Shown here: positions 1,193-40,085 of the stretch, piece after piece
Numbering within the stretch: the stretch's first letter is position 1
How the letters are laid out: the number at the start of each line of letters is the position of its first letter
IMG/VR virus record: IMGVR_UViG_3300045988_096501
Strand: one strand, 5' to 3'
DNA from: a virus
Length of the DNA stretch: 43,668 nucleotides
Made by a program: the position numbers and the translations under genes
Notes under the pieces: model-generated
The model's input: only the letters and a program-made list of their open reading frames with translations
What the model was told of the DNA's origin: nothing
The model's database searches: none

Positions 1193-2080
1193 TCACCCCC
1201 TCCCCGCCACCAACGATTCCTTAATCCTGTCTACTGCATAGGACAGACCTTTACGGTAGACCCACTTTGAAACAATACAACGGTCCTTGCTTATAAGAAG
1301 TGACCAGTCTGTATAGTTCCTTGTGATGCCATCAATTGTAATGTATTTGTCGCGATGCTTGCCGTTTGTGGCGGCGATGTCTGGCAAAAAACATCCTGTT
1401 CCAGACATGCCTTCTTTAACCTTTAAGACGGCATAATCCTCCCCAACTTTCATCCACTTTGATATTACGCCTCTGTGTAAGCCGAGAAGTTTTGCCCATT
1501 GTGAGTATGACAAGGTTTCCCCATCAACAGTCAGATACATAGTATGAGCAACGCTTGAATTTTCAGACAATGGAATTAGCCTGCAATTATCCGGTGAATA
1601 GTCCTTGTTTGAATCTATGCGGTCAATTGATAAGCCCTTTTTATACCCACTTTCGATTGCCCACTTCTGAAATTCAGAAAAGTCATGCCACGCCTCGCAG
1701 ACAGAAACGCCTTTCCCACCATACCACTTAAAATCTTTACTTTTCGGATTTTCACACCTCCGTTTCATGCTGTCCCATAGGCGATACAAAGGGGTTTTGC
1801 TGGAATTGTGAGTTGCCTGTTTACGGCCAAGAGCTGCTACCTTTTCATTTCTCAGACATCCACATGATTTACTTCTTCCTCTCAAAACATTTTGAGCATC
1901 AAAAGTAACTATGTTTCCGCAATTGCACTGACACATAAATGTCTTTCTTCCGCTTTCAGAGGCCCCAACATTTAGCACGGTTAGCCTCCCAAATTGTGAG
2001 CCAATGTAAGCAGCCCAATCTTTCACAAAAAGCACCACCATATAAAATAAATTTACACTTCTATTATAGATTTTAATCAC
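1193..2080 (-). CDS. HNH homing-endonuclease-like protein with N-terminal Cys4 zinc region
   Basis: Motifs YRLWDSMKRRC...KWYGGKGVSVCEAW...SIDRID..Y.P.NCR typical of phage HNH endonucleases; N-terminal CxC..CGCL region is paralogous to ORF 32071..32529; opposite strand to the flanking tail genes; start codon ambiguous (GTG 2080 or ATG 2041). Confidence 0.7.
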   Translation of the reverse strand: MIKIYNRSVNLFYMVVLFVKDWAAYIGSQFGRLTVLNVGASESGRKTFMCQCNCGNIVTFDAQNVLRGRSKSCGCLRNEKVAALGRKQATHNSSKTPLYRLWDSMKRRCENPKSKDFKWYGGKGVSVCEAWHDFSEFQKWAIESGYKKGLSIDRIDSNKDYSPDNCRLIPLSENSSVAHTMYLTVDGETLSYSQWAKLLGLHRGVISKWMKVGEDYAVLKVKEGMSGTGCFLPDIAATNGKHRDKYITIDGITRNYTDWSLLISKDRCIVSKWVYRKGLSYAVDRIKESLVAGRG

Positions 2081-2101: not shown

Positions 2102-2674
2102 ATGGGATACGGTTTGCCAAAAAGCGTGACAGTAGGCGATCAGGAGTTTGCTGTCCGATATGACTACAGGGTCATTCTGGATATCTTCGAGGCCATGAAT
2201 GACCCGGAGCTAAACGACCAGGACCGCGCACTTGCCGTGCTCCAGATGTTCTACCCTAGCTGGGAGGAGCTGCCCGACTTTGACGATGCGCTGCGGGAGT
2301 GCATGGTTTTTATCAACGGAGGCAAGGCCCAGCCGGAGGATCGGAAGGCCCCTAATTTGGTGAGCTGGGAACAGGATTACCCGTACATTGTCGCACCCAT
2401 CAACCGGGTCCTAGGGTATGAGGTCAGGGCAGTTGAGTACGACCCAGAGGCGAATTCCGGCGGACTGCATTGGTGGACTTTCCTGGCGGCCTATTATGAG
2501 ATCGGGGACTGCCTGTTTGCTCAAATCGTTAGAATACGGGATAAAAAAGCTCGCGGAAAGCCTTTGGACAAGGCAGATCGGGAGTTCTACCGAAAGAACC
2601 AAGACCTGATAAATATCAAGACTCGGTACAGCGAGGCGGAGAAAGACCTGCTCGATATGTGGACAAAGGGATAA
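2102..2674 (+). CDS. Tail assembly chaperone, Gp15-like
   Basis: 190-aa protein between gpG-like chaperone and tape measure; RBS AAGGAGAA; resembles the Listeria phage A118 gp15 family. Confidence 0.55.
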   Translation: MGYGLPKSVTVGDQEFAVRYDYRVILDIFEAMNDPELNDQDRALAVLQMFYPSWEELPDFDDALRECMVFINGGKAQPEDRKAPNLVSWEQDYPYIVAPINRVLGYEVRAVEYDPEANSGGLHWWTFLAAYYEIGDCLFAQIVRIRDKKARGKPLDKADREFYRKNQDLINIKTRYSEAEKDLLDMWTKG

Positions 2675-2680
2675 AAAGAA

Positions 2681-2698
2681 CCGCCCCAGAAGGGGCGG
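2681..2698 (-). terminator. Rho-independent terminator of the toxin-antitoxin cassette
   Basis: ccgcccc-agaa-ggggcgg hairpin followed by a T-run on the minus strand, immediately after the YoeB stop. Confidence 0.65.
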
Positions 2699-2702
2699 AC
2701 AA

Positions 2703-2963
2703 TTAGTTACCATAATGTGTGCGGCATTGAGCGATTTCTATACGGCCATCACGAATGCGGTAAACAAGCCGGTTTGTATTATCAATTCGTCGGCTCCACC
2801 AGCCTGAAAGGTCCCCTTTTAAAGCCTCTGGTTTCCCAATACCAGAATATTGGTTGCGGTCAATATCCTGTATAAGCAAGTTGATCCGCTTTAGCGTTTT
2901 CTTGTCCTGCCGCTGCCAATACAAGTAATCTTCCCAAGCTTCAGACTGCCAGAGTTTATTCAT
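2703..2963 (-). CDS. yoeB: YoeB/Txe-family toxin (RelE fold mRNA interferase)
   Basis: Near-colinear match to E. coli YoeB: WxxEAWEDYLYWQ...GKPE.LKG.LSGWWSRRI....RLVY....IEI..CRTHY. Confidence 0.93.
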   Translation of the reverse strand: MNKLWQSEAWEDYLYWQRQDKKTLKRINLLIQDIDRNQYSGIGKPEALKGDLSGWWSRRIDNTNRLVYRIRDGRIEIAQCRTHYGN

Positions 2964-3213
2964 CAGCTACCTCAATGAGATCATGGACTGTTCCATGTCC
3001 CGCATCCAGATCGGAAATAGCTTTTCTAAGGTGGTTCTGATTATCGGCAGAATAGAATGGGTCAAGCCGCACATCAAATGGGAGCCCCTGGTAGCGAATG
3101 CACTGTTTTAAAAACAGCGTGGTTGCTGCAGTCATGCTTAATCCGAGCTCATCAAATAATGCTTCTGCATCACGTTTCAGATTATCATCAATACGCATGT
3201 TGATATTTGCCAT
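2956..3213 (-). CDS. RelB/DinJ-family antitoxin (RHH) paired with YoeB
   Basis: N-terminus MRIDDNLKRDAEALFDELGLSMTAATTLFL...LPFDVRL matches the DinJ/RelB RHH domain; overlaps the toxin start by 8 nt; RBS AAAGGAGATG. Confidence 0.85.
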   Translation of the reverse strand: MANINMRIDDNLKRDAEALFDELGLSMTAATTLFLKQCIRYQGLPFDVRLDPFYSADNQNHLRKAISDLDAGHGTVHDLIEVADE

Positions 3214-3234
3214 AGAATCATCTCCTTTAAAGAG

Positions 3235-3263
3235 ATAATATCACATTGTGCGCACGTTGTCAA
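3235..3263 (-). promoter_or_regulatory. Sigma70-type promoter of the toxin-antitoxin operon with palindromic operator
   Basis: Minus-strand TTGACA-17 nt-TATTAT with extended TG; the 10-bp palindrome tgtgcgcaca (3246..3255) lies in the spacer, consistent with antitoxin autorepression. Confidence 0.55.
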
Positions 3264-3290
3264 CAAAAATTACAAAAAGGTGGTGGATTT

Positions 3291-5546
3291 ATGGCAGCTG
3301 ATGGGTCTATCGTTATACAGACAGACATTGACAATAAAAAGGCTCAGACGGAGCTAAATCGTTTAACAAGTAAAATTGACAAAATGCGAGAAAGCCTATC
3401 GAAAGATGAAGGGGAAAAGAGCGGAATAGAGGCTGAATTGAATGCAGCCAAAGAGGAAGCTCTAAAAACAGAGCAAACAATCAAGCGACTGAAAGTTGAA
3501 CTGGCTGAAACTCAAAAAATTACCACCGGAGAAGTTGATGCACGTCCTACTGTCTTCTTGGATGCCAAAAACAGACAGGCAGAAATTTTAGCGCAGTTAA
3601 AAGAGCAGGAAACTTTACTGGCCCAGCAGGACAAAGAGACGCAGCGGCTGGATACCAAATATGCAAAAATTACAGACAAGGTAATACAGACAACAAATGA
3701 GCTAAAAGACGCAGAAACCCACGCAGGCGATTTGTCTGCTCAGCTGACACAAGCCGGGACTTCCGGGAATGTAATGGCTAGCGCTGCAGATCAGGCCGGA
3801 AAATACATGGACAAGTTTATCAATCGGGTCAAGGGATTGGCCAGAAGGGTGTTTGTTTTTACACTTATCACCTCCGCCTTGCGTGCCATGCGAACATGGC
3901 TCTGGAAGGTCATACAAACCGATAGTGAAGCTACGGCATCCGTCGCAAAGTTGAAAGGTGCGCTTTTGACGCTGGCGCAGCCTCTTGTAAATGTAATTAT
4001 TCCAGCTTTTATAACGCTTGTGAATGTGTTGGCTAGGGTCGTGTCGGCAATTGCGTCGCTTATATCTATGTTGTTTGGGTCGACAATAGAGCAGTCAAGC
4101 GAAGCGGCAGAAAGTCTCTATCAGGAAACGGAAGCGCTTGAGGGCGTTGGAAGCGCAGCAAAAGATGCCGGAAAATCTATGGCTTCCTTTGATGAAATTA
4201 ATCAGCTTTCCGGCGGTGCTAAGAGCGGTGGAGGCGGAAGCGGCAGTTCAACGATTACTCCTGATTTCAACCTAGATGCTGAGGAAGGCATCCTAAACGA
4301 TATTCTAAGGCTGGTGGGTGCAATTGGGGCTGGCCTCCTTGCATGGAAAATCGCAAGCGGTTTTACAAATTCGCTCCAGACATTGGCTGGAGTTGCCCTT
4401 ATTGTCGGCGGTGCATTAGAGTTTGTTTTTAATTGGCTGGATGCGTGGAATAACGGCGTCGATTGGGGAAATTTGAACGGTATGGTCCTTGGGCTTGCTG
4501 CAGCGGCAGTTGGACTATACATGGTTCTAGGGCCTGTAGCGGCTGGCATTGCACTTATAGTAGGAGGTCTTCTAATCTTAGCGACGGGCATCAAAGACGT
4601 TATTGAAAACGGATGGACAATGGAGAATTTATTCACCATTATTGCTGGACTATTCGCTGCAGGAATTGGAATTTCCATTTTAACTGGTTCGTTTATCCCG
4701 GCATTGGTGGCTGGAATACTTGGCATCCTCTTGGCAATTACAGTCCTGACCGGTCATGGGGGAGAACTGATTGACGGCCTAAAAGAGATGTTCAGCGGCT
4801 TTACTGACTTTTTCAAAGGGGTATTTACTGGCGACTTCGAACTGGCAGCCCAAGGAATAGAAAAAATATTTAATGGACTCGGAACTGTATTTAACGCTGT
4901 CCTGGACGGAATTAAGGATGCCTTTATCGGCCTGCTGAATTGGCTGGATGAAAAAACAGGTGGGAAACTGCATGGTATCTTAGAGACAATAAAGGGTATG
5001 TTTACCGGACTCGTTGATGGAATAAAACAGATTCTTGGTGGTATTATCGAGTTTCTGACTGGAGTATTTACTGGCGATTGGGATCGCGCATGGAATGGCG
5101 TCAAAGACATTTTTAAAGGTGTATGGAATGGTGTCGTCTCGCTCTTAGAAGGCGCTGTTAATTTGATTATTAAGGGCGTAAATTGGCTCATTTCCCAGCT
5201 AAACAAAATCCATTTTGAACTTCCGGATTGGATTCCTGGAATTGGCGGAAAATCATTTGGAATTAATATCCCGCTTGTCTCTGAAATTCAGATTCCACGA
5301 TTGGCCCAAGGCGCTGTGATTCCACCTAATCGGGAGTTTATGGCTGTGCTTGGAGATCAGAAGAGTGGCACAAACATTGAGGCCCCGGAAGCGTTAATCC
5401 GCCGAATTGTAAAAGAAGAAGCAGGAAACAATGGCGGCAGCATGACATTGGTTTTGGACGGAGACCTTGCAGCGCTTGCTACTGTATTTCGCCCGTACCT
5501 ATTGAAAGAGGACAAACGGATAGGCGTTAAATTGACCACAAGATAG
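3291..5546 (+). CDS. Tail tape measure protein
   Basis: 752 aa; N-terminal coiled coils, central hydrophobic/Gly-rich segment, position after the chaperones; RBS GGTGGTGG. Confidence 0.9.
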   Translation: MAADGSIVIQTDIDNKKAQTELNRLTSKIDKMRESLSKDEGEKSGIEAELNAAKEEALKTEQTIKRLKVELAETQKITTGEVDARPTVFLDAKNRQAEILAQLKEQETLLAQQDKETQRLDTKYAKITDKVIQTTNELKDAETHAGDLSAQLTQAGTSGNVMASAADQAGKYMDKFINRVKGLARRVFVFTLITSALRAMRTWLWKVIQTDSEATASVAKLKGALLTLAQPLVNVIIPAFITLVNVLARVVSAIASLISMLFGSTIEQSSEAAESLYQETEALEGVGSAAKDAGKSMASFDEINQLSGGAKSGGGGSGSSTITPDFNLDAEEGILNDILRLVGAIGAGLLAWKIASGFTNSLQTLAGVALIVGGALEFVFNWLDAWNNGVDWGNLNGMVLGLAAAAVGLYMVLGPVAAGIALIVGGLLILATGIKDVIENGWTMENLFTIIAGLFAAGIGISILTGSFIPALVAGILGILLAITVLTGHGGELIDGLKEMFSGFTDFFKGVFTGDFELAAQGIEKIFNGLGTVFNAVLDGIKDAFIGLLNWLDEKTGGKLHGILETIKGMFTGLVDGIKQILGGIIEFLTGVFTGDWDRAWNGVKDIFKGVWNGVVSLLEGAVNLIIKGVNWLISQLNKIHFELPDWIPGIGGKSFGINIPLVSEIQIPRLAQGAVIPPNREFMAVLGDQKSGTNIEAPEALIRRIVKEEAGNNGGSMTLVLDGDLAALATVFRPYLLKEDKRIGVKLTTR

Positions 5547-7408: not shown

Positions 7409-7413
7409 GTGAG

Positions 7414-7890
7414 GTGTATGGCGTGCTCAACCTGATTACCGACCGGACGCAGGCGGACGTGGACCGGGTGCAATATTTAGCCTCCGTCGGCTGGGAAAAC
7501 ATGACGGACGCAGAAAAGGCAGAATGGAGTACACCCCTAAAAGGCGCTTACAACGCTTCCGATCTGAATCGTGTAGGTGCTGCGGTTACTTATATTTCAA
7601 ACCGGCTCTTTGAGTACGGATATTTTGTGCCGGTTACAGCAAAGCAAGATTGGGACAAGACCGGCATCCCAACGCAGGCGGATATGTATTTGCACCTCCA
7701 GAATGTGCGAAAGCTGAAAGGCACCTTGGACGAGATGGGGTACACTCCGGATGTGCCTGAAGATATGGAACACCTGACTTATCAGGAAGCAAACGATATC
7801 GAGAAAATTTTGGTCGATCTTGATTTCCTTTTGAACAATATGGTTGCCGCATGGTTTTACGCGGGAGAACTATATGCCGGGGAGGTATAG
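7414..7890 (+). CDS. Hypothetical tail-associated protein
   Basis: GTG start with G-rich RBS; sits between the tail tip and fibre genes. Confidence 0.4.
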   Translation: MYGVLNLITDRTQADVDRVQYLASVGWENMTDAEKAEWSTPLKGAYNASDLNRVGAAVTYISNRLFEYGYFVPVTAKQDWDKTGIPTQADMYLHLQNVRKLKGTLDEMGYTPDVPEDMEHLTYQEANDIEKILVDLDFLLNNMVAAWFYAGELYAGEV

Positions 7891-10540: not shown

Positions 10541-10801
10541 ATGGAAATCAAAACGATGAGCTTTACGAACCCCTATTACAAGAAGGAGTGGCAGGAGTGG
10601 GTGCCCGGCTTTGAGGGCAAGGTGCGCTACCGGGAGGGTACATACACACTGCAGGGGGACGGGACCAAGGTCGTGTATGACGGCGCGACCAACTACATGG
10701 GCAGGGTGCGGCCTGACGGCAGCTTTACCAGCAACGACAGCCATGGCGCGGCCCCGGACGAGTATGAGCTGACCTTCCTGCGGGCGGCGAAAGAGGTATG
10801 A
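10541..10801 (+). CDS. Hypothetical protein
   Basis: RBS AAAGGAAG 8 nt upstream of ATG; stop overlaps the lysin start (ATGA). Confidence 0.45.
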   Translation: MEIKTMSFTNPYYKKEWQEWVPGFEGKVRYREGTYTLQGDGTKVVYDGATNYMGRVRPDGSFTSNDSHGAAPDEYELTFLRAAKEV

Positions 10802-12255
10802 GTAAGTATGTAAGCGCGATCCCGCTGGAGCAGATCGTGCGGGCGGAACTGGTAGAGGCCAAAGGGCGGAGCATGTCCCAGGTTAAGACCGCAGTGGGCT
10901 GTGACCAGATCATCAACTGCTGGTTTTACAACATGTCTACCGGGCGGCCGGTGGGCAATCTGAAGATCAATGGCGTGGTGAAGGCCAACGCGGGCTGGTC
11001 CGGGTACGGCCTGACCTGGGACGCCGGGGCGGATATGCGCCTGGCGCTGGTGCCCGTGCAGGGCGGCGAGAATTACCTCTCCGGGGTGGAGCTGCTGACG
11101 CCCTCCAGGCAGGAGGGTGCAAAGCTGTCCTACGATGCCGCATACGGCGGCAGGCGCGGCCGGTCTGCGGCCATGATCGCCGGGGAAACGCTGGTGCTCT
11201 ACTGCAGCGGGGATGGAACCGGGGATGCAAAGACGCCGGAGGCGCTGCGGGACGAGCTGGCGGCAATCGGCCGGAAGTACGAGCCGTCCGGAACGCTGTA
11301 CGCCACGGGATGGGATTCCGGCGGCTCCAGCCAGTGCGACTTTGGCGGCGGGCGGAAGATCACCAGCAGCCGGAAGGTGGCCGGGGATTTCTGTCTTTGG
11401 CTGGAAAAGGATGAGCAGAAGGGGGACAGGCCTGTGGGCAGACAGTACAAGGTAACGCCGTCTGTGGGCGTCAATATCCGCAGCGGTCCGGGGACAGGCT
11501 ATTCCAAGGTTGGGGCCTATGCGTGCGGCACGGTGGTGGCGGTCACGGCTGCGCAGGGCGGCTGGGGACAGACGGCCAAGGGCTGGGTGGCCCTGGAGTA
11601 TCTGGCGGCCGTGGAGGGCGCTCAGCGGACCACGGACACGGGGATGAAGATTCGGACGGCGTACATTGACGCCGGACGGAAGAACCGGCCGGGCGGGGTA
11701 AATCCCTGCAGGTACATTACCATCCACGAGACGGGCAACAAGGCCTCCGGCGCGGACGCCGAAGCCCATGGGGCCTATCTGAACAGCTCCGCCGGGGAGG
11801 CCGATCTGGTCAGCTGGCACTACACGGTGGACGACCACGCCATTGTGCAGCACCTGCCCGATGGGGAGACGGCCTACCACGCGGGGGACGGCAAGGCAGG
11901 GACGGGCAACGCCCAGAGCATCGGGATTGAGATCTGCGTCAACGCGGACGGGAACTTTGCAAAGGCCAAAGCGAACGCGGCCGCCCTGGTGCGGCTGCTG
12001 ATGGAGGAGCACGGCATCCCGATTGCAAACGTGGTGCAGCACAACCGCTGGAACGGCAAGGACTGCCCGTACGCCATCCGGCACACGGCCGGGGCCTGGG
12101 AGGCCTTCCTGGCGCTATGCGGGGGTGAGAGCGCCGTGGAGACAGACCGGAAAGCGGTCCAGGAGCGCTTTGGGCTGGCGGACGAGACCATGGACTATCT
12201 GGAGGCATACAAATACGGTAAGGATTTGCTGGCCAAGCTGGCCAGTGGAAAGTGA
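10798..12255 (+). CDS. Endolysin: N-acetylmuramoyl-L-alanine amidase (Amidase_2/PGRP) with central SH3b and an N-terminal domain of unknown type
   Basis: Amidase_2 motifs (ITIHETGN...YHAGDG...SIGIEIC...QHNRWNGKDCP); SH3b-like segment (YKVTPSVGVNIRSGPGTGYSKVG...GWVALEYL). Confidence 0.85.
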   Translation: MSKYVSAIPLEQIVRAELVEAKGRSMSQVKTAVGCDQIINCWFYNMSTGRPVGNLKINGVVKANAGWSGYGLTWDAGADMRLALVPVQGGENYLSGVELLTPSRQEGAKLSYDAAYGGRRGRSAAMIAGETLVLYCSGDGTGDAKTPEALRDELAAIGRKYEPSGTLYATGWDSGGSSQCDFGGGRKITSSRKVAGDFCLWLEKDEQKGDRPVGRQYKVTPSVGVNIRSGPGTGYSKVGAYACGTVVAVTAAQGGWGQTAKGWVALEYLAAVEGAQRTTDTGMKIRTAYIDAGRKNRPGGVNPCRYITIHETGNKASGADAEAHGAYLNSSAGEADLVSWHYTVDDHAIVQHLPDGETAYHAGDGKAGTGNAQSIGIEICVNADGNFAKAKANAAALVRLLMEEHGIPIANVVQHNRWNGKDCPYAIRHTAGAWEAFLALCGGESAVETDRKAVQERFGLADETMDYLEAYKYGKDLLAKLASGK

Positions 12256-14524: not shown

Positions 14525-15076
14525 TCAACCCACCGCTGCTTTCCAAACAAATCCTTTACAAGACTTTATTCGTCCCATATAACAATTGACGATTGTGCAT
14601 GGACTGCAATTATAGTACCGCGCTGCATCTGAAATACACGTCCATACTTTTATAAGTTCGCCTGCTTTTGTATATTGCCATACTTGACGGCTATTTTTAT
14701 TAGCAGCGCCTTTGATACCACGCATATTGCTATCTAACCTAAGCCCAGTTTTGATGGCGTGTCTTGTATTCTGACTATAAGTAACCCATTCTAAATTGTC
14801 CGCGCGATTATTTGACTTATCTCCGTCTATATGGTTTACACAAGAGAACCCATCTGTATTAGGCACAAAGGCTTCAGCTACTGCAATATGAATGTACTTA
14901 TGTTTAATAGTTTTGGATTTAGAAAGAGAAACAAAGAGATAATCCGTGGTTCCCTTTTTTGTTGCCATTAAATGAGGCTTTTTTGTGTGGTTGTAATTCA
15001 GGCTTTTCACTTTTCCTAAATTACTTACCTGATACAATCCTTCGTAGCCAACAATGTCTTTCCAAATTTCTTCCAT
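14525..15076 (-). CDS. HNH homing endonuclease (NUMOD4 + HNH_3)
   Basis: N-terminus EEIWKDIVGYEGLYQVSNLGKVKS (NUMOD4) and VNHIDGDKSNNRADNLEWVTYSQNTRHA (HNH); RBS AAAGGGTAA. Confidence 0.8.
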   Translation of the reverse strand: MEEIWKDIVGYEGLYQVSNLGKVKSLNYNHTKKPHLMATKKGTTDYLFVSLSKSKTIKHKYIHIAVAEAFVPNTDGFSCVNHIDGDKSNNRADNLEWVTYSQNTRHAIKTGLRLDSNMRGIKGAANKNSRQVWQYTKAGELIKVWTCISDAARYYNCSPCTIVNCYMGRIKSCKGFVWKAAVG

Positions 15077-15244
15077 TGCATTTACCCTTTCATGCTCCCT
15101 TTTTTAGTAAATTGTACGGAAACCGTCAGGGTAACGGCTTGTCGGGAGCGACCCTATCCGCACATAAATATTATAACATAAAGTTACAAAAAGTCTATAA
15201 ATGCGGCCGCATTTTAGAAAAAAATTATAAAAGGAGACAAAATT

Positions 15245-17630: not shown

Positions 17631-18662
17631 CTATTTCATCTTTAAGATTTCTTTTCTCAAAAAGGAAACATTTATGTGAGTATAATGGTCTGTAACATCC
17701 TTGTCCGCATGTCCTAGAATTCGTTTCACTGCTATTTCATCCATTCCGGCCATTCTCATTCTGGACGCTGCGGTATGTCGGCACCAATGCGGCGTAGCTT
17801 GTGGAGCACCCAATTCTTTTGCAATGGTTGAAAATAATTTTCGGTATGTGTCCGGACGAATTACATCTCCGTTATCATTGCAAACAATAGCTTTCCCGTC
17901 TTGAAACATACGGTTTTCAAGATATGGTTTAATCTTTGGGTGGACTGGCACAATCCGATCTTTCCCCGCAGTTGTCTTAATGCCACCCTGTAAATAGTCT
18001 CCGTCTGCATGATAAGAGTATTTTGTTAATTCCAAAAATTCGGAGATTCGGAAACCGGTATAGCATAAAATAAGTACTGTATCAGCCCACGGAACCCCAT
18101 CTTTTGCCATCCGCTCTAAAGCTATTAATTGCTGCTCGGAAAAAGCGTTTTTTTCTACCTTTGCCTCCATGCGAGGCAATTCAACATATTCGGAGTAGTC
18201 TTTCTTTATAAGATCACGTTTCATGGCATATTTACATAAAGCCCTCATTAAACTAAGGTCGTTATTGATAGAAGAGTTTGATAATTTCTTCCTCTCATCA
18301 TCATCAATAATTCCCTGCAAATCATCTAATGTAATTTTACGTATCTCTTTGTATCCTAGGACGCTGATACGCCCCCACGATGCTTTATAGCTTGCAATGG
18401 ATGCTTTTCCCGCTTTTTCATATTTTCTGGCGCTCCAGGAATCGTATACGTTTGCAAGAGTAATTCCGATATCCTGTGCTTTGCACCCAGAGCGCAAATA
18501 TTCCTCTAAAGCGGCTTGTGCCTCTTTGGCCGTTCTGTGATAGGATAAATATTTTTGTTTCCAGAGGCCTGGCCTTTCTTGATAGGATATACGTATAGCA
18601 TAACGATTTCTGCGATTCGGACCAAGATTTACAATACTTCCTGTTCCGTTGGCTCTTCTCAT
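17631..18662 (-). CDS. int: Tyrosine site-specific integrase
   Basis: C-terminal catalytic motifs (HWCRHTAAS...LGHADKDVTDHYTH), N-terminal arm-binding-type domain; 343 aa. Confidence 0.9.
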   Translation of the reverse strand: MRRANGTGSIVNLGPNRRNRYAIRISYQERPGLWKQKYLSYHRTAKEAQAALEEYLRSGCKAQDIGITLANVYDSWSARKYEKAGKASIASYKASWGRISVLGYKEIRKITLDDLQGIIDDDERKKLSNSSINNDLSLMRALCKYAMKRDLIKKDYSEYVELPRMEAKVEKNAFSEQQLIALERMAKDGVPWADTVLILCYTGFRISEFLELTKYSYHADGDYLQGGIKTTAGKDRIVPVHPKIKPYLENRMFQDGKAIVCNDNGDVIRPDTYRKLFSTIAKELGAPQATPHWCRHTAASRMRMAGMDEIAVKRILGHADKDVTDHYTHINVSFLRKEILKMK

Positions 18663-19291: not shown

Positions 19292-19696
19292 TCAACCTCT
19301 AATAAGCCCAATAGATGGATTTAAGAGATCCATAATTATTGCATAGCCTAAAAGAATGCCGCACAAGACAAACAAAGCGATAATTACCTTATTTCTATGT
19401 AGAATTCCTTTTTGCAAAATGAAATATTTTTCTTGTGCATGCTTTAATCGAATTTCTAAGATGTCTTCATCGTCAACCAACCGTTTATCTGATTTGATTC
19501 CAAAATAGCTATCTAGGGATACCCCCAAGGCCGCACAAATCGGACCAACTGTATAGACGGACGGGGCCTTAGACGATTCTGAAAAGTAGTTGTTAACAGT
19601 AGACGCAGATAAATTTGCTCTATCTGCTATGTTTTGATTTGTTAAGTTTAAAGAGTCTTTTTTCTCCTTACATAAATCTTTAATTAATGCCTCCAT
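19292..19696 (-). CDS. Membrane-anchored XRE-family HTH regulator
   Basis: N-terminal HTH (LTNQNIADRANLSASTVNNYFS) and C-terminal TM helix (VIIALFVLCGILLGYAII). Confidence 0.65.
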   Translation of the reverse strand: MEALIKDLCKEKKDSLNLTNQNIADRANLSASTVNNYFSESSKAPSVYTVGPICAALGVSLDSYFGIKSDKRLVDDEDILEIRLKHAQEKYFILQKGILHRNKVIIALFVLCGILLGYAIIMDLLNPSIGLIRG

Positions 19697-20782: not shown

Positions 20783-21151
20783 TTATTTTTTTGTAAAGCC
20801 GTCTATCAGTTTTCTGATGGCGGCTTTTTCATCGTCTTCCATAAACCAATATGCCTTGATAATCCGTTTAATCAGTTCATCATCTGACATATGAATTTGC
20901 TCCATAACTTCTAGGAACTCCTCATCTTCATCCCGCTGAATATGAGGATCGCCTTCTCCGGTACGCAGCCAGAGCTCGGAGATGTTAAATTCACGGCAGA
21001 TGTCGGCAATGGTGCGATCACTTGGGTTCGTTTTGCTCAAGCATAAATTAGAAACAAACTGCTGAGAGACATTTATACGCTCTGCAAAAGCGGTCTTTGT
21101 TAGGCCACTATCCTTTACGCACCATGCGATTCGTTCGTTGATGGTCTCCAC
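20783..21151 (-). CDS. CI-like lysogeny repressor (XRE/Cro-C1 HTH)
   Basis: HTH LTKTAFAERINVSQQFVSNL; GTG start with RBS AGGAGGTG; divergent from the early operon. Confidence 0.7.
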   Translation of the reverse strand: METINERIAWCVKDSGLTKTAFAERINVSQQFVSNLCLSKTNPSDRTIADICREFNISELWLRTGEGDPHIQRDEDEEFLEVMEQIHMSDDELIKRIIKAYWFMEDDEKAAIRKLIDGFTKK

Positions 21152-21199
21152 TATGTGCACCTCCTGCCTGATACATATTAAAACACAAAACGGATAATA

Positions 21200-21278
21200 A
21201 GTCAAGAAAAATCACAAGTGAGTTGTGAAAAATACTTGACACCAAAATTTAATTGTGATAATATACAAGTGAGATGTA
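21200..21278. promoter_or_regulatory. Lysis-lysogeny switch: divergent promoters with palindromic operators
   Basis: Rightward TTGACA (21236..21241)-17-TAATAT (21259..21264) with extended TG; leftward TTGACT (21200..21205, minus); palindrome tcacaagtgagttgtga 21212..21228 and half-site repeat acaagtgag at 21266..21274. Confidence 0.6.
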
Positions 21279-26376: not shown

Positions 26377-26955
26377 GTGGAGCGAACACAATTTACGTGG
26401 TATGAATCCTTCTCCAAGGCGATCAAAAGGATCAAAAAAAAGGCGGATCGCTGCGACGCGTATGACGCAATTTCCGATTATGCCCTATACGGAAGGGAGC
26501 CTGATCTTGACCAATTACCCGATTCCGCTGCTATTGCGTTCGAACTGATCAGACCGAATTTGGATGCAAGCAGGCGGAAAGCAAACGCCGGAAAATCTGG
26601 AGGAAGTGCAAAGCAAAACGCAAGCAAAGCGGAAGCAGAGCGCAAGCAAGAGGAAACCGAAAGGGAGAAAGAGAAAGAGAAAGAGAAAGAGAACGAATGT
26701 TATCCCCCTACCCCCTTACCAGACGGTAAGGGGAAGCGGCAAAGCCGCTTTATTCCCCCCACAGTGGAAGAAGTATGTGCGTATTGCCTGGAACGTGGCA
26801 ACGACGTGGACCCGGAGCAGTTTGTGGATTTCTACATGGCAAGGGGCTGGAGGTATGGACCCGGAAGGCCGATTGTGGACTGGAAGGCCGCCGTGCGGAC
26901 ATGGGAGAAACGCGGAGAAAAGAAGGGTGGAGAGGATGATTACTGGACCAAATAG
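26377..26955 (+). CDS. Replisome organiser / replication initiation protein (phage DnaD-like)
   Basis: GTG start; N-terminal replisome-organiser-like domain, EKEKEKEKE linker encoded by a GA simple repeat, C-terminal WKAAVRTWEKRG motif. Confidence 0.5.
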   Translation: MERTQFTWYESFSKAIKRIKKKADRCDAYDAISDYALYGREPDLDQLPDSAAIAFELIRPNLDASRRKANAGKSGGSAKQNASKAEAERKQEETEREKEKEKEKENECYPPTPLPDGKGKRQSRFIPPTVEEVCAYCLERGNDVDPEQFVDFYMARGWRYGPGRPIVDWKAAVRTWEKRGEKKGGEDDYWTK

Positions 26956-28192
26956 CTCCCTGCTCTACCGTCCGGAGCTGATGGACCCGGCGGAGCCGAC
27001 AGGGCTATGGTGGATGAAGGACGCGGAGGACACGGCTGTGGTGGGCGTGAACGCGGTGAGCAAGAGCATATTAGCACCGTGGAGCGACCTGGAGGCATGG
27101 GAGGAATGGCTGCGGCAGTTCCCGTACATCCTGGTAGCCGTTCCACCCGGAGGGGTGCAGGAGGAGATTGTGGGCGAGCTGACTGCGCGGGTTCCCATAC
27201 CGGTCAGCGTGCCGGCCCCGGCGGCGTTCAGAGGCTTTGAATCCATCCGGGCGCTTTGGGCCGACGGGGGGAAGAAGGCGCTGGAGCGGCTGCTGCTGGA
27301 GGCGCAGGAGCAGCCGGCGGCGGGGCTGCTGAACCTTGCCGACGTGGACTGCAGCAGGCGAAAAAACGCCAGGCGGGTGATCTCCGGAGTCGCGGACCTG
27401 GACCGGGCGATCGGCGGCTTCTCGGGGGGCGAGCTATCCGTGTGGACGGGAAAGCGCGGAGAGGGCAAGTCCACATTTCTGGGACAAATACTGCTGGAAA
27501 GCGTCAACCAGGGGCGCAAGGTGTGCGCGTACTCTGGAGAGATGCCGAAGGAGCAATTCAAGCTCTCTTTGCTTCAGCAGGCCGCGGGGCATTTGAACGT
27601 CAACCGGCGGGAGGACGACAGGAGCGGACGTGTGTTTTTCGACGTAAAGCCTGAGGTGATTCCGCTGATCGACGAATGGTGGAGCGGGCGACTATTTTTG
27701 ACGGATATTTCCCGCAAGGACGCGCATGATGAGCGGAATATTCTAAAGATTTTTGAGTACGCATACCGGCGCTACGGCTGCGACATTTTTCTGGTGGACA
27801 ACATCATGACGGCGGAACTTCGGGACGAGGCAAACCTTGGTTTTTGGCGGGCGCAGTCAGCCTTTACCGGTCGGCTTGTGGATTTTGCAAAGCGGCTGAA
27901 TGTGCACGTGCATCTGGTAGCCCATCCACGCAAAACGAATGGGAAGCTAGAGGCGGATGATGTGGGCGGCTCCAGCGATATCACCAACCGGGCGGACAAC
28001 GTGTTCAAGTTGGAGCGCGTACCGGACGAGGATGCGGCAGCGGCGGGGTACTCCACGCTGCTGACCGTGCTGAAGAACCGGGAGTTCGGCGCGCGGGACC
28101 GGGTGAAGCTGGACTATAACGAGCCATCTAGGCGGCTGTACAGGGCCGGAGGAAGTCCGGCGCGGCGCTTTTCGTGGGAGGCAAGGCGATGA
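26936..28192 (+). CDS. DnaB-like replicative helicase (RecA-fold C-terminal domain)
   Basis: Walker A GKRGEGKST, Walker B IFLVDNIM, VHLVAHPRK; RBS GAAGGGTGGAGAGG; the upstream in-frame extension to 26564 is rejected. Confidence 0.8.
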   Translation: MITGPNSSLLYRPELMDPAEPTGLWWMKDAEDTAVVGVNAVSKSILAPWSDLEAWEEWLRQFPYILVAVPPGGVQEEIVGELTARVPIPVSVPAPAAFRGFESIRALWADGGKKALERLLLEAQEQPAAGLLNLADVDCSRRKNARRVISGVADLDRAIGGFSGGELSVWTGKRGEGKSTFLGQILLESVNQGRKVCAYSGEMPKEQFKLSLLQQAAGHLNVNRREDDRSGRVFFDVKPEVIPLIDEWWSGRLFLTDISRKDAHDERNILKIFEYAYRRYGCDIFLVDNIMTAELRDEANLGFWRAQSAFTGRLVDFAKRLNVHVHLVAHPRKTNGKLEADDVGGSSDITNRADNVFKLERVPDEDAAAAGYSTLLTVLKNREFGARDRVKLDYNEPSRRLYRAGGSPARRFSWEARR

Positions 28193-31517: not shown

Positions 31518-31680
31518 TCTTTTATCATCTCAAAACAATATACAAGCCCTCCCACAGGAATGGGAGAGCAAAGCGTAATGTATGCAATAATGGGAGCGTG
31601 GGGGTGTATGCCCTTCGCTCCCACTTTATTTCCCTTCCTTGCCCGGCGGCGGTTGACCTCCTGCTGCCGTCGGGGTATAT

Positions 31681-31759
31681 GCTCTTGTAGCTCAGCGGGG
31701 AGAGCGGCCCGGAAAAGCGGGTGGTCAAAGCGTCACTGGTTCGAGTCCAGTCAAGAGCT
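31681..31759 (+). tRNA. tRNA-like gene with canonical acceptor, D and T arms but atypical anticodon arm
   Basis: Acceptor gctcttg/caagagc (7 bp); D-arm gctc-agcgggga-gagc; T-arm actgg-ttcgagt-ccagt; middle hairpin gcccg-gaaaag-cgggt has a 6-nt loop; no encoded CCA. Confidence 0.4.
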
Positions 31760-31805
31760 TGTGGATGGTAGTTTTCCATCCGCAGAGTACATTTGCCGCT
31801 CCAAA

Positions 31806-31909
31806 GGCCACGGAGCTGACACCCCGGAAAGACGGGGGCATGCGGCCATAAAGGAATGAGTAGAGCGGTGTATGCCGCTGCAGCAGTTCGATTCTGCTGG
31901 TGGCCCCCA
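31806..31909 (+). ncRNA. tRNA/tmRNA-like 3' element: T-arm + acceptor 3' strand + encoded CCA
   Basis: agcag-ttcgatt-ctgct T-arm, ggtggcc acceptor half, discriminator c, CCA (31907..31909); partial 5' complement ggccac at 31806; internal hairpins 31822..31838 and 31864..31879. Confidence 0.25.
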
Positions 31910-32043
31910 GAAGCTGGGTCGCGCCCAGATGATCTGAGCGTAGCGCAATTCCTCAGAGAGAAAGACAATGCCCGCTGAAAACTGCCGTGCTGCCTGTATA
32001 CGGGCCTCCTGCAACGGTGTGATAATCTAAGCGTGAAGCGCAA

Positions 32044-32069
32044 ATAAAAACCGCCCCACGAGGGGGCGG
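32044..32069 (-). terminator. Rho-independent terminator after the AP2/HNH gene
   Basis: Minus strand ccgccccctcgtggggcgg followed by TTTTTATTT. Confidence 0.65.
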
Positions 32070-32070
32070 A

Positions 32071-32529
32071 TCAATCAATGGAATCTATTGCGTTCTGTAA
32101 TCGTTCCTGCTCGCCTTGCTTCCTAGCCTTTACCGCAGCCTGAAAATCTGGCCCGCGATAAAGCCGGATGCGCTGGCCCTTGTAGTATAGCGTTGCCTCC
32201 CACTGGCCGCCGGTCCAACATACGCCGCGCACACCGGAGCGATTATTTCGTTGCGGCTTTGATGATTGGAGCCTGGATAAGTTGGTTCCGTTGGTAATGC
32301 CGGCATTCCGGACTACCTGACCGAGCCGGTCCCCCAAATAGGAGGGGTGGAGGCACCCACAGCTTTTTGTTTTTGCAGACCGGAGTGACCTGGTGGACAG
32401 ATAGCACTCCTTGCCGCAGGCTGTACAAAGGCACTTGTATACCACGTTAGACCCGGCACGGCGGTCAGTCGGGGCAATCACTTTGATATAGCCGTAGGTC
32501 TTGCCGGTCAAATCAAGTCGTTTTGGCAT
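32071..32529 (-). CDS. AP2-domain protein with N-terminal Cys4 zinc region (HNH-endonuclease-associated family)
   Basis: AP2 domain SGVRGVCWTGGQWEATLYYKGQRIRLYRGPDFQAAVKARK; N-terminal CLCTACGKEC...CGCL is paralogous to ORF 1193..2080. Confidence 0.75.
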   Translation of the reverse strand: MPKRLDLTGKTYGYIKVIAPTDRRAGSNVVYKCLCTACGKECYLSTRSLRSAKTKSCGCLHPSYLGDRLGQVVRNAGITNGTNLSRLQSSKPQRNNRSGVRGVCWTGGQWEATLYYKGQRIRLYRGPDFQAAVKARKQGEQERLQNAIDSID

Positions 32530-32540
32530 TTGTAAGCTCC

Positions 32541-32822
32541 TTATATCAAGGCGTGGGGATCAACGCCGAGAACATCGGCAAGGGCAAGCAGGTTTTTTGC
32601 TGTCAAATTACCTGCCTCGGACTCGCCAAGCTCCACCCGCTGGATCTGGCGCACATGCACGGAGGACTTAGTGGCTAGCTCCTGCTGAGAGAGCCCGGCG
32701 CCGCGGCGGTACCACTCCAGCTTGGTGAGCGCATTGTTATGGCAGTCCCGGCCATAGTTGACCAGGGAGCAGACAGTACAGTCTCCGTCTGTCCGTTGGC
32801 AGTCCCGATATTTGCGCCTCAT
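32541..32822 (-). CDS. HTH (XRE-like) protein with N-terminal Cys cluster
   Basis: CQRTDGDCTVCSL...CHN then LSQQELATKSSVHVRQIQRVELGES. Confidence 0.55.
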   Translation of the reverse strand: MRRKYRDCQRTDGDCTVCSLVNYGRDCHNNALTKLEWYRRGAGLSQQELATKSSVHVRQIQRVELGESEAGNLTAKNLLALADVLGVDPHALI

Positions 32823-33079
32823 CCGTCCACCTCCTCAGCGCCGCCGTTGCGGGCCTCGACCAAGCGCTGGATTGCACGGTAGCACTCCTCTGGGTCGTCC
32901 TCGCCGCCCTCCCAGCAGTCCTCGATCGGGTCGCCTCCGGCCTTGAGGTCGGCCAGGGTGGCGCGGACGAGCTCCTGGTCCAGGTCGGTCAGATAGTAGA
33001 CGCAGCGGTCGTTGCTGTCCAGCACGGCCAGGTGCAGGCCACCTGCATTGTCTGCAAAGAGTTGATAGTTGTATTTCAT
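32819..33079 (-). CDS. Small highly acidic hypothetical protein
   Basis: 86 aa, about 20 Asp/Glu versus 7 Lys/Arg; immediately upstream (same operon) of the small HTH gene. Confidence 0.45.
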   Translation of the reverse strand: MKYNYQLFADNAGGLHLAVLDSNDRCVYYLTDLDQELVRATLADLKAGGDPIEDCWEGGEDDPEECYRAIQRLVEARNGGAEEVDG

Positions 33080-33094
33080 CTTGTTTACCTCCTG

Positions 33095-33481
33095 TTAGGG
33101 ATTCATCATTTTTTCCACGGCGGCCCGGTGGGCCTCCACCTCTGACATAATGGCATTGTGGGCAGCGATGCGGCGGGCACGGTCCGCTCTCTCCTCACCG
33201 TAAACGGCGGAGGACACCTCGGACGGAAGGGCAACCAAGATGCGATCCTTGCCCACACGGTCGATCAGGATGCAGTCGGTGCCGCGCTCATTATAGAGCT
33301 CATGGAGCTTGGTGGGTTTGCCGTTGACGGTCATGCTATCCACGGACCGCTCCCAGCGGCTGCAATCGGCCTCGATCTGCGCACCGTCTGCATAGATGGT
33401 CTCGCGGGTGACATGGGTCACGGTAATGGTGGCAGAGATCTTCGCTCCGCGGGGGGTTGTCCAAGTGTAAGTGTTAGTCAT
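33095..33481 (-). CDS. Hypothetical protein
   Basis: RBS AGGAGGTCACAGAA before ATG at 33481; first gene of the minus-strand cassette. Confidence 0.5.
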   Translation of the reverse strand: MTNTYTWTTPRGAKISATITVTHVTRETIYADGAQIEADCSRWERSVDSMTVNGKPTKLHELYNERGTDCILIDRVGKDRILVALPSEVSSAVYGEERADRARRIAAHNAIMSEVEAHRAAVEKMMNP

Positions 33482-33584
33482 TTCTGTGACCTCCTGTCCT
33501 TTGATGATTTTATTATACGCCAATATTAGCACGTTGTCAATAGAAAAATGCTAAAATTAGCATAAAATATTTGCCGCCCTGCGG

Positions 33585-39941: not shown

Positions 39942-40085
39942 ACACTGAACCCCGCTCTAATTGGTGAGCGGGAAGGACCATTGGGGTCAACTTGTAAGGA
40001 TTTCTTACGGGTTGACTCCTTTTTCATTTGCCGAGAGGCGTAAAACCGCAGGGCGACGGCCCTGATAATAAACGGAGGTAATACC

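What the first reader, a model, noticed from the sequence alone, without database searches (positions are those of the whole stretch)
2678..3263. Autonomous YoeB-RelB/DinJ toxin-antitoxin moron inside the tail operon
A textbook YoeB toxin and a DinJ/RelB-type antitoxin sit on the opposite strand between the tail chaperone and the tape measure gene. The cassette has its own TTGACA-17-TATTAT promoter with a perfect 10-bp palindrome (tgtgcgcaca) in the spacer, and its own strong intrinsic terminator. It is a self-contained cassette dropped into a late structural operon. It may act as a prophage addiction or abortive-infection module, and its antisense transcription could interfere with tail gene expression.
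Basis: partly seen in the sequence, partly recalled or inferred. Interest (0 to 1): 0.6.

Follow-up and report, generated by a model that had tools for sequence, protein, structure and literature searches.

The report
Toxin-antitoxin moron in phage tail operon
A temperate gut phage carries an intact, self-regulated YoeB toxin / RelB-DinJ antitoxin gene pair, with its own promoter and terminator, dropped backwards into a well-known cargo slot between its tail chaperone and tape measure genes. This is a clean but ordinary example of a phage "moron".

Summary
Window 2673-3270 (- strand) contains a terminator, a full-length YoeB toxin (2703-2963), a RelB/DinJ antitoxin (2956-3213, 8-nt ATGAATAA overlap) and a TTGACA-17-TATTAT promoter. 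It sits between Phage_Gp15 and the tape measure gene of a temperate siphovirus. One detail is wrong: the perfect palindrome is 8 bp (GTGCGCAC), not 10 bp.

The moron interpretation is supported.
- Relatives that are 96-98% identical (L003-L005) have an empty site: 50 bp instead of 633 bp.
- Of 88 relatives, 49 are empty, 39 carry other cargo at this junction (the ones inspected are nearly all reverse-strand membrane proteins), and none has the TA.
- Homologous cassettes, from promoter to terminator, sit in unrelated phages and in Clostridia chromosomes.

The conserved regulatory element is two ACAWTGT boxes 11 bp apart that overlap the -35 hexamer, not the GC palindrome.

The chaperone|tape-measure position is exactly where the first moron (HK97 gene 15) lies, and TA morons have already been predicted. 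This is a new member of a known kind. Toxicity, autoregulation, and the choice between a defence role and an addiction role remain untested. The suggested antisense interference with tail genes is unlikely, because the promoter points away from the tape measure gene and a terminator shields Gp15.

The parts
2673..2698 (-). Intrinsic terminator: stem CCGCCCC/GGGGCGG (2681-2698), loop TTCT, U-tract TTCTTTTT (2680..2673). The U-tract overlaps the Gp15 stop codon (2672-2674).
   Evidence: 7 G-C pairs, T-run. (-17.2 kcal/mol, z-score -3.7; on the + strand the hairpin folds but no U-run follows); the same hairpin follows the Gp15 stop in L001, L006, L007 and L009, which carry different cargo.
2703..2963 (-). 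YoeB/Txe-family toxin, 86 aa.
   Evidence: PF06769, 2.3e-37, full length. (TIGR02116 equivalog, 106 bits); end-to-end alignment with E. coli YoeB 2a6q_E, 1.9e-27; the Glu46, Arg65, His83 and Tyr84 equivalents are conserved (GKPEalk, nRLVY, crtHY).
2956..3213 (-). RelB/DinJ-family ribbon-helix-helix antitoxin, 85 aa. Its stop overlaps the toxin start by 8 nt (ATGAATAA).
   Evidence: PF04221, 5.3e-12. (TIGR02384, 68 bits); residues 1-50 align with the DinJ and RelB structures; 9lew_A matches residues 3-81 at 2.7e-13. No Phd/YefM family hit.
3222..3225 (-). Ribosome-binding site GGAG of the antitoxin, 8 nt upstream of its ATG.
   Evidence: Read directly from the sequence. The AAAGGAG motif is conserved in homologous cassettes.
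3235..3263 (-). Sigma-70-type promoter: TTGACA (3263..3258), 17-nt spacer, TATTAT (3240..3235), with TG at -15/-14.
   Evidence: 11/12 plus TG. (5 such sites in the window against 0.57 expected); the -35 and -10 hexamers are invariant across 11 diverged cassettes.
3243..3260 (-). Putative operator: two 7-bp ACAWTGT boxes, ACAACGT (3260..3254) and ACAATGT (3249..3243), 11 bp apart and separated by GCGC. The first box overlaps the -35 hexamer. The 8-bp palindrome GTGCGCAC (3248-3255) is the centre of this unit.
   Evidence: unique in the window, 0.02 expected by chance; the boxes are conserved in 16 of 51 distinct cassette promoters while the central 4 nt vary; sister genomes have two perfect ACAATGT boxes. 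Binding by the antitoxin is inferred, not shown.
2642..3274 (.). Segment absent from the nearest relatives (the insertion/replacement interval); L003-L005 have 50 bp here.
   Evidence: the blastn alignment breaks at window 2641/3275. DNA homology to cassettes in unrelated phages spans window 3270..2673.
2102..2674 (+). Left flank: Phage_Gp15 protein (tail assembly chaperone position).
   Evidence: PF06854, 9.6e-20. (phrog_706).
3291..5546 (+). Right flank: tail tape measure protein. Its RBS AAAGGTGGTGG (3276-3286) is the conserved right edge of the slot.
   Evidence: phrog_1535, 2e-55; the AAGGTGGTGATTTT-ATG sequence is conserved in relatives.

Best explanation
This is a horizontally acquired type II toxin-antitoxin moron: a RelB/DinJ-type antitoxin plus a YoeB-type ribosome-dependent mRNA endonuclease.

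Shown here: it occupies a recurrent cargo slot between the Gp15 chaperone gene and the tape measure gene of a temperate siphovirus whose relatives are Oscillospiraceae prophages. Both genes are intact. The toxin keeps the YoeB catalytic residues. The pair has its own near-consensus promoter and terminator. The cassette is present or absent among near-identical phages, and it recurs in unrelated phages and in chromosomes.

Inferred from what is established for RelBE, DinJ-YafQ and YefM-YoeB: in the lysogen the cassette is transcribed leftwards from its own promoter while the late operon is silent. The antitoxin, alone or with the toxin, binds the two ACAWTGT boxes that overlap the -35 hexamer and fill the spacer, and so represses its own promoter. 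The terminator stops the transcript before it runs antisense into Gp15. Because the terminator faces the other way, late-operon transcription can read through it.

When antitoxin synthesis stops, the labile antitoxin decays and YoeB cleaves ribosome-bound mRNAs, arresting the cell. This could happen through host transcription shut-off by a superinfecting phage, or through loss of the prophage. Many other cargos in this slot are reverse-strand membrane proteins reminiscent of (not shown to be) superinfection-exclusion proteins, as at the HK97 gene 15 position. I therefore favour lysogen protection by abortive-infection-like exclusion as the selected role, with prophage stabilisation as an automatic side effect.
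For: - Family identity of both proteins.
- Promoter, terminator and operator.
- Temperate phage: integrase 17631-18662 and repressor-like regulators.
- Empty site in relatives 96-98% identical.
- Of 88 junctions, 49 are empty, 39 carry other cargo and 0 have the TA.
- Other cargos, on the reverse strand in all but one inspected locus, are Zn-ribbon-TM-DUF4352 proteins, membrane tRNA_anti-like proteins and lipoprotein-like proteins.
- The identical toxin occurs at the same junction in all six contigs shown; the index lists it in 86 blocks of the collection. Its presence is independent of the neighbouring HNH insert.
- Cassette homologues (toxin 84-95% identical) sit on the opposite strand inside a myovirus baseplate module and between holin and fibre genes, and in a defence-like region beside AAA_21-RloB and PIN-MazE.
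- DNA homology covers promoter to terminator.
- The same pairing occurs in Clostridia chromosomes and in a lysogeny module.
- HK97 gene 15, the first moron, lies at the same chaperone|TMP position, and TA morons have already been predicted (PMC3594210).
Against: - No experiment: toxicity, neutralisation, promoter activity, operator binding and expression in lysogeny are all inferred.
- PADLOC has no model matching either protein, and I know of no direct demonstration that a YoeB system defends against phage.
- The defence argument by location is circumstantial.
- Base composition differs from the left flank only (43% against 54% GC; the right flank is 41-45%).
- Cassette orientation relative to neighbours is mixed across viral contigs (16 of 54 flanked on both sides by opposite-strand genes, from crude gene calls). 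Reverse orientation is therefore not a general rule.
- Whether the terminator arrived with the cassette or belongs to the slot is unresolved.
Confidence: 0.6

Rival explanations
1. Prophage addiction only. The cassette's selected role is post-segregational arrest of cells that lose or excise the prophage, which stabilises lysogeny. It gives no meaningful protection against other phages.
For: NCBIfam names the toxin a 'Txe/YoeB family addiction module toxin'. The phage is temperate. A homologous pair sits inside a lysogeny module next to a CI-like repressor, ImmA-like peptidase and integrase in Flavonifractor. Addiction is the classical role of TA modules on mobile elements (reviews PMC4803016 and PMC8230891).
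Against: An integrated prophage is inherited with the chromosome, so segregational loss is rare. Excision normally leads to lysis anyway. Many other cargos in this slot are membrane proteins that resemble exclusion proteins rather than stabilisers. One homologue lies among defence-type genes.
Confidence: 0.25
2. Selfish hitchhiker. The TA cassette spreads by recombination and persists because it is hard to lose. It brings no net benefit to phage or host. The slot merely tolerates insertions, because the junction between two genes is neutral.
For: The same clade of RelB-YoeB pairs is found in very many unrelated contexts, including among housekeeping genes (1034 blocks) and at different places in different phages. 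Orientation and neighbours are mixed. The nearest relatives do well without it.
Against: The identical toxin is listed in 86 blocks of the collection, and all six contigs shown carry the cassette at this junction, so this variant is successful. Phage genome size is constrained by packaging, so useless DNA tends to be lost. The regulatory architecture is conserved.
Confidence: 0.2
3. Self-regulation of the phage's own lytic cycle. Late-operon RNA polymerase reads through the cassette head-on, which silences the TA promoter and produces RNA antisense to the TA transcript. The antitoxin then runs out and YoeB acts as a timed host shut-off or lysis-phase factor. Conversely, the TA promoter/repressor complex 28 nt upstream of the tape measure start could dampen tail gene expression.
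For: Geometry only. The cassette is convergent with the late operon. Its -35 hexamer lies 28 nt from the TMP ATG. Homologous cassettes are also embedded antisense in late modules of two other phage lineages.
Against: YoeB cleaves translated mRNAs without known discrimination, so it would also hit late phage mRNAs. TA transcription runs away from the TMP gene and is terminated before Gp15. Close relatives assemble tails with an empty site or with quite different cargo. Many homologues are not inside late operons.
Confidence: 0.07
4. Decaying or non-functional remnant that only looks like a TA pair.
For: No functional data exist.
Against: Both ORFs are full length against their family models. 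The catalytic residues are intact. The translational-coupling overlap, RBS, promoter and terminator are all preserved. Identical or 98-99% identical proteins recur in many samples.
Confidence: 0.03

Closest known systems
YefM-YoeB / Axe-Txe type II toxin-antitoxin systems (E. coli, S. aureus, pRUM)
   Same: The toxin aligns end to end with E. coli YoeB (2a6q_E, 1.9e-27) and keeps the catalytic Glu, Arg, His and Tyr. The antitoxin gene comes first. Both are small overlapping genes.
   Different: The antitoxin's DNA-binding domain is a RelB/DinJ ribbon-helix-helix, not the Phd/YefM fold. There is no Phd/YefM family hit. The operator is therefore expected to be of the RHH type.
DinJ-YafQ and RelB-RelE (E. 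coli)
   Same: The antitoxin N-terminus (residues 1-50) aligns with the DinJ structures (4q2u, 4ml0) and RelB structures (2k29, 4fxe). The toxin belongs to the RelE/ParE superfamily. The repeated short operator boxes in the promoter resemble what is described for RelB (PMC2812701, title and abstract seen).
   Different: The toxin is YoeB-type, not YafQ or RelE: Pfam lists only YoeB_toxin, plus a ParE_toxin match below its cut-off, and nothing for YafQ or RelE families. Operator binding was not tested here.
HK97 gene 15 moron (Juhala et al. 2000; Cumby et al. 2012), as summarised in PMC3594210
   Same: It occupies the same position in a siphovirus tail operon, between the tail assembly chaperone gene and the tape measure gene. 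It is present in some phages and absent from close relatives, and it has its own promoter and terminator (compared). Relatives of this window carry membrane proteins in the slot, like HK97 gp15.
   Different: The cargo here is a two-gene toxin-antitoxin operon rather than a single inner-membrane exclusion protein. The phage lineage and host phylum are different (Oscillospiraceae-type prophages).
Toxin-antitoxin pairs predicted as morons or carried by prophages (Burkholderia phage morons, P1 phd-doc)
   Same: A TA pair carried as accessory cargo of a temperate phage (PMC3594210; reviews).
   Different: The toxin/antitoxin families and the insertion site are different. None of these is the RelB/DinJ-YoeB clade found here.

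Membership tests
Txe/YoeB toxin family (PF06769 / TIGR02116) | Full-length match above the curated cut-offs. | tested here: met
   PF06769: 127.3 bits (cut-off 27), profile positions 1-80/80. TIGR02116 equivalog: 106.4 bits (cut-off 51.8).
Txe/YoeB toxin family (PF06769 / TIGR02116) | Catalytic residues of E. coli YoeB (Glu46, Arg65, His83, Tyr84; residue numbers from my knowledge of Kamada & Hanaoka 2005). | tested here: met
   In the alignment to 2a6q_E: gkpEalk aligns with gkpEplk, nRlvy with hRlvy, and crtHY with cryHY.
Txe/YoeB toxin family (PF06769 / TIGR02116) | Ribosome-dependent mRNA cleavage and growth arrest. | not testable with these tools
   Needs expression and cleavage assays.
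RelB/DinJ antitoxin family (PF04221 / TIGR02384) | Match above the curated cut-offs, with an N-terminal ribbon-helix-helix. | tested here: met
   PF04221: 45.9 bits (cut-off 22.4). TIGR02384: 68.1 bits (cut-off 45.65). Residues 1-50 align with the DinJ and RelB structures.
RelB/DinJ antitoxin family (PF04221 / TIGR02384) | Binds operator repeats in its own promoter and neutralises the downstream toxin through its C-terminal region. | not testable with these tools
   Candidate operator at 3243-3260. The C-terminal similarity to YefM and to the 9lew DinJ is weak.
Canonical YefM-YoeB system | Antitoxin of the Phd/YefM family. | tested here: not met
   Pfam and NCBIfam list only RelB/DinJ-type families for the antitoxin. 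It is therefore a RelB/DinJ-YoeB pairing, a recombination of families of the kind described as 'hybrid' systems (PMC4803016).
Type II TA operon architecture | Antitoxin upstream of toxin, small genes, overlapping or adjacent, with a single promoter. | tested here: met
   The 8-nt ATGAATAA overlap is conserved in homologues. There is one promoter upstream and one terminator downstream.
Phage moron (sense of Juhala/Hendrix, as summarised in PMC3594210) | Extra DNA that is absent from closely related phages. | tested here: met
   L003-L005 are 96-98% identical in the flanks and have 50 bp in place of 633 bp. None of 88 other relatives carries it.
Phage moron (sense of Juhala/Hendrix, as summarised in PMC3594210) | Own promoter and terminator. 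| tested here: met
   Consensus-level prediction only. Conserved in homologous cassettes. Activity was not measured.
Phage moron (sense of Juhala/Hendrix, as summarised in PMC3594210) | Base composition different from the surrounding genes. | tested here: inconclusive
   GC is 0.43 in 2701-3300, 0.54 in 2101-2700, and 0.41-0.45 in the start of the TMP gene.
Phage moron (sense of Juhala/Hendrix, as summarised in PMC3594210) | Expressed from the repressed prophage. | not testable with these tools
   Needs a lysogen transcriptome or a reporter.
Catalogued anti-phage defence systems (PADLOC-DB v2) | Match to a defence-system protein model. | tested here: not met
   No hit for the toxin, the antitoxin or the neighbouring HNH protein.

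The most novel reading that the evidence does not exclude
The Gp15|tape-measure junction may be a dedicated cargo-exchange slot in a broad family of Oscillospiraceae siphoviruses. On this reading it is bounded on the left by a conserved one-way terminator hairpin fused to the Gp15 stop codon, and on the right by the TMP ribosome-binding site. Lysogen-protective genes are swapped through it, and the RelB/DinJ-YoeB cassette, with its two-box operator, circulates as one of these cargos. In addition, head-on late transcription through the cassette might release YoeB as a timed effector during the phage's own lytic cycle.
Probability: 0.12. Interest if true: 0.5.

Novelty: new member of a known kind. 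Interest (0 to 1): 0.25.

Why it matters
This is a very clean natural example of a moron. Empty-site, other-cargo and TA-bearing versions of near-identical gut phages are all available, so isogenic comparisons are feasible. It also gives a specific operator prediction: two ACAWTGT boxes, 11 bp apart, overlapping the -35 hexamer. That prediction applies to a RelB/DinJ-YoeB clade that is abundant in gut Clostridia and their phages. Neither the gene families, nor the insertion site, nor the idea of a TA pair as prophage cargo is new. The value is descriptive, for annotating gut phage accessory genes and hotspots, not conceptual.

Tried and rejected
1. The perfect 10-bp palindrome as the operator. 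Rejected: the window has only 8 perfect bp. Across homologous promoters the central GCGC is replaced by AATG, ATAT, ACAT, ATCA and GATT, while the flanking ACAWTGT boxes stay.

2. "The cassette always sits antisense to its neighbours". Rejected: crude gene calls on 54 viral loci gave a mixture of orientations.

3. A transposon-like insertion with target-site duplication. No flanking direct repeats were found. The only repeats are short chance-level matches and the trivially complementary divergent RBS/start regions. The left boundary is a gradual divergence within the Gp15 3' end, which fits exchange by recombination.

4. A chimeric antitoxin (RHH N-terminus plus YefM C-terminus). The C-terminal similarity to YefM is weak (nothing significant with the peptide alone). 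A DinJ-named structure (9lew_A) matches along the full length. I therefore do not claim chimerism.

5. What 9LEW is. The literature search for the code returned only irrelevant old papers.

6. The known phage collection (INPHARED) holds no close annotated relative, only unannotated faecal 'Bacteriophage sp.' scaffolds.

7. PADLOC gave no match. Rfam found nothing in or near the cassette.

Full report
**What the window is.** The 43.7-kb window looks like a complete temperate siphovirus genome. It has:
- a tyrosine integrase at 17631-18662 (-) and repressor-type regulators at 19292-19696 (-) and 20783-21205 (-);
- an endolysin at 10798-12255 and a primase/helicase at 26564-28192;
- a tail module at the left end: a tube-position protein (179-733), a 143-aa protein (746-1177), Phage_Gp15 (2102-2674), the tape measure protein (3291-5546) and distal tail proteins.

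Relatives of this tail module are human-gut viral contigs and prophages in Oscillibacter, Dysosmobacter, Neopoerus, Anaeromassilibacillus and many Oscillospiraceae MAGs.

**Checking the observation.** On the minus strand between Gp15 and the tape measure gene there are two overlapping ORFs.
- 2703-2963 encodes an 86-aa protein that matches Pfam YoeB_toxin over the entire model (2.3e-37) and the NCBIfam equivalog TIGR02116 (106 bits, cut-off 51.8). It aligns end to end with E. coli YoeB (2a6q_E, 1.9e-27), with the catalytic Glu, Arg, His and Tyr equivalents conserved.
- 2956-3213 encodes an 85-aa protein that matches Pfam RelB (5.3e-12) and TIGR02384 RelB_DinJ (68 bits, cut-off 45.65). Its first 50 residues align with the ribbon-helix-helix domains of the DinJ and RelB structures.
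- The antitoxin stop and the toxin start overlap in ATGAATAA. This arrangement is conserved in every homologue inspected.
- The promoter scan finds TTGACA-17-TATTAT at 3263..3235 (-) with 11/12 matches and an extended -10 TG. Sites this good are about nine times more frequent in this window than in Markov simulations (5 against 0.57).
- The terminator CCGCCCC-TTCT-GGGGCGG plus TTCTTTTT lies 4 nt after the toxin stop (-17.2 kcal/mol, z-score -3.7). Its U-tract overlaps the Gp15 stop codon on the other strand.

The one error in the finding is the palindrome. The sequence reads tgtgcgcacG, so only GTGCGCAC (3248-3255) is a perfect palindrome.

**Is it an insertion?** Yes.
- Three viral contigs (L003, L004, L005) are 93-98% identical to the window across the surrounding genes. 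They have 50 bp where the window has 633 bp (2642-3274), and 3 bp where the window has a 912-bp reverse-strand HNH endonuclease gene (1178-2089).
- Among 88 relatives from IMG/VR, GenBank and GTDB genomes in which both Gp15 and the start of the tape measure gene could be located, 49 have an empty junction (60 bp or less), 39 have 243-2045 bp of other DNA, and none has YoeB or RelB.
- The other cargos sit on the reverse strand in all but one inspected locus (L055, + strand). They encode zinc-ribbon/transmembrane/DUF4352 proteins, membrane-anchored tRNA_anti-like OB proteins and lipoprotein-like proteins.
- A look-up of the exact toxin sequence lists it in 86 blocks of the assembly collection. 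All six contigs shown carry it at this same junction of this same phage type, and the longest contigs are only 20-50 kb. Two of the six lack the HNH insert and four have it. The TA cassette and the HNH gene are therefore independent presence/absence polymorphisms.

**Is it a mobile, self-contained unit?** Yes.
- Toxins 84-95% identical, each preceded by an 85-87-aa RelB-family antitoxin, occur in four other settings:
  - on the opposite strand inside the baseplate module of a myovirus;
  - on the opposite strand between the holin gene and tail-fibre genes of another phage;
  - in a replication/defence-type region beside AAA_21-RloB and PIN-MazE pairs;
  - in Clostridia chromosomes, both inside a lysogeny module and among housekeeping genes.
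- Nucleotide homology between the window and these copies runs from the -35 region (3269/3270) to the end of the toxin (2710) or through the terminator (2673). This matches the interval missing from the empty-site relatives.
- No target-site duplication or terminal repeat is present.
- The left boundary is a zone of divergence in the last roughly 35 bp of Gp15. There the window resembles the cargo-bearing relatives L001, L006, L007 and L009, including the hairpin directly after the Gp15 stop, rather than its otherwise closest empty-site relatives.
- The right boundary is the tape measure ribosome-binding site.
- The most economical reading is exchange by recombination within a slot, not transposition. 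Whether the hairpin belongs to the slot or to the cassette cannot be settled, because cassette copies elsewhere carry similar G+C-rich terminators.

**The regulatory region.** I compared the promoters of 51 distinct RelB-YoeB cassettes from viral contigs and aligned 11 diverged ones.
- The invariant positions are the -35 hexamer, the -10 hexamer and two 7-bp boxes, ACAWTGT, 11 bp apart. The first box overlaps TTGACA. The four bases between the boxes vary freely (GCGC, AATG, AATT, ATAT, ACAT, ATCA, ATAG, GATT).
- In the window the unit is ACAACGT-GCGC-ACAATGT (3260..3243). It is unique in the 43.7 kb (0.02 expected).
- Sister genomes carrying the identical toxin have two perfect ACAATGT boxes.
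The boxes are the better operator candidate. One helical turn between sites that cover the -35 hexamer and the spacer is what one expects for adjacent RHH dimers repressing their own promoter, as described for RelB (PMC2812701, title and abstract seen). That expectation rests on my knowledge of RHH repressors. Binding was not tested.

**How it most likely works.**
- Shown: intact genes, catalytic residues, operon architecture, predicted promoter/operator/terminator, mobility and a temperate host phage.
- Inferred from the established behaviour of RelBE, DinJ-YafQ and YefM-YoeB: expression in the lysogen from its own promoter, autorepression, a labile antitoxin, and release of YoeB when antitoxin synthesis stops, followed by ribosome-dependent mRNA cleavage and growth arrest.
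- The reverse orientation makes sense. The terminator has a U-tract only on the minus-strand transcript. It should stop the cassette transcript before Gp15 without terminating late transcription toward the tape measure gene.
- For the same reason, antisense interference with tail genes is unlikely. The promoter points away from the tape measure gene, and the transcript should end before Gp15.
- As to biological payoff, many cargos in the slot are membrane proteins reminiscent of the HK97 gp15 exclusion protein, and one homologue lies among defence genes. I therefore lean toward protection of the lysogen against other phages, with prophage stabilisation as a side effect. Addiction alone, or pure selfishness, cannot be excluded. 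PADLOC has no model for this pair.

**Comparison with what is known.**
- The toxin is a member of the Txe/YoeB family.
- The antitoxin is a member of the RelB/DinJ family, not of Phd/YefM, so this is not a canonical YefM-YoeB system. Mixing of toxin and antitoxin families is well documented (PMC4803016), and this particular pairing is the norm in the Clostridia clade to which the toxin belongs.
[quoted passage not shown] TA pairs have already been listed among predicted morons (PMC3594210).
- The finding is therefore a well-documented new member of a known kind.

**Verdict.** Novelty is low. What this analysis adds is:
- the empty-site and alternative-cargo relatives;
- the recurrence of the promoter-to-terminator unit in unrelated phages;
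- the two-box operator prediction.

Noticed in passing
window 1193-2080 (-); insertion interval 1178-2089: A second reverse-strand insert sits in the same tail-chaperone region: an HNH-type endonuclease (phrog_374, 1.4e-61; no Pfam hit) exactly between the 143-aa protein and Gp15. These two genes are adjacent or overlapping in all relatives. The insert is present or absent independently of the TA cassette: L194 and L196-L198 have it, while L193, L195 and L003-L005 lack it.
   Followed up: partly
Gp15|TMP junction in L001, L002, L006, L007, L009, L010, L013, L025, L033, L036, L055, L060-L082, L172-L191: The junction is a cargo hotspot. 39 of 88 relatives carry 243-2045 bp here. In the loci inspected the cargo is, with one exception (L055, + strand), reverse-strand genes for Zn-ribbon-TM-DUF4352/DUF5067 proteins, membrane tRNA_anti-like OB proteins or lipoprotein-like proteins. 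L010 and L174 have a 1.8-kb multi-gene insert.
   Followed up: partly
window 2681-2698, and the same position in L001, L006, L007, L009: The hairpin CCGCCCC-N4-GGGGCGG directly after the Gp15 stop codon is shared by relatives with unrelated cargo, but is absent from the empty-site relatives L003-L005. The Gp15 3' end co-varies with it. It may be a boundary element of the slot.
   Followed up: partly
window 7412-7417 against L003 10728-12016: The close relative L003 has about 1.3 kb of extra DNA between the 485-aa tail protein gene and the next gene, where the window has 4 bp. This is another variable slot in the tail module.
   Followed up: no
window 31525-33540 (-): A block of four reverse-strand ORFs (145, 93, 152 and 172 aa) lies just upstream of the terminase region. 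The 93-aa ORF is an HTH_3 protein. The block sits behind a perfect 12/12 TTGACA-17-TATAAT promoter at 33540 (-). It may be another moron or a regulatory island.
   Followed up: partly
window 39948-39994 (+) and 15098-15164 (-): Rfam matches above gathering score: gut-2 RNA (53.9 bits) inside the head-gene region, and int-alpA RNA (41.7 bits) next to a second HNH endonuclease gene.
   Followed up: no
window 14525-15076 (-): A second homing-type endonuclease is present (NUMOD4 + HNH_3 + NUMOD1; phrog_59, 7.9e-47).
   Followed up: no
window 2956-3213 (-), antitoxin residues 51-85: The antitoxin C-terminus carries the nearly invariant motif DPFYS-x2-N-x3-L. It weakly resembles the YoeB-binding C-terminus of YefM and the C-terminus of a DinJ-named structure, 9lew_A. 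This may be a shared toxin-binding segment across antitoxin families.
   Followed up: partly
window 3257 (box 1 of the operator), against L193/L195: Sister genomes with the identical toxin have ACAATGT in both boxes. The window has ACAACGT in the box that overlaps the -35 hexamer, a single T-to-C change in the putative operator.
   Followed up: no
window 9735 (+), 10032 (-), 23833 (-): Three further sites match the promoter consensus at 11-12 of 12 positions. The window as a whole has 5 such sites against 0.57 expected.
   Followed up: no
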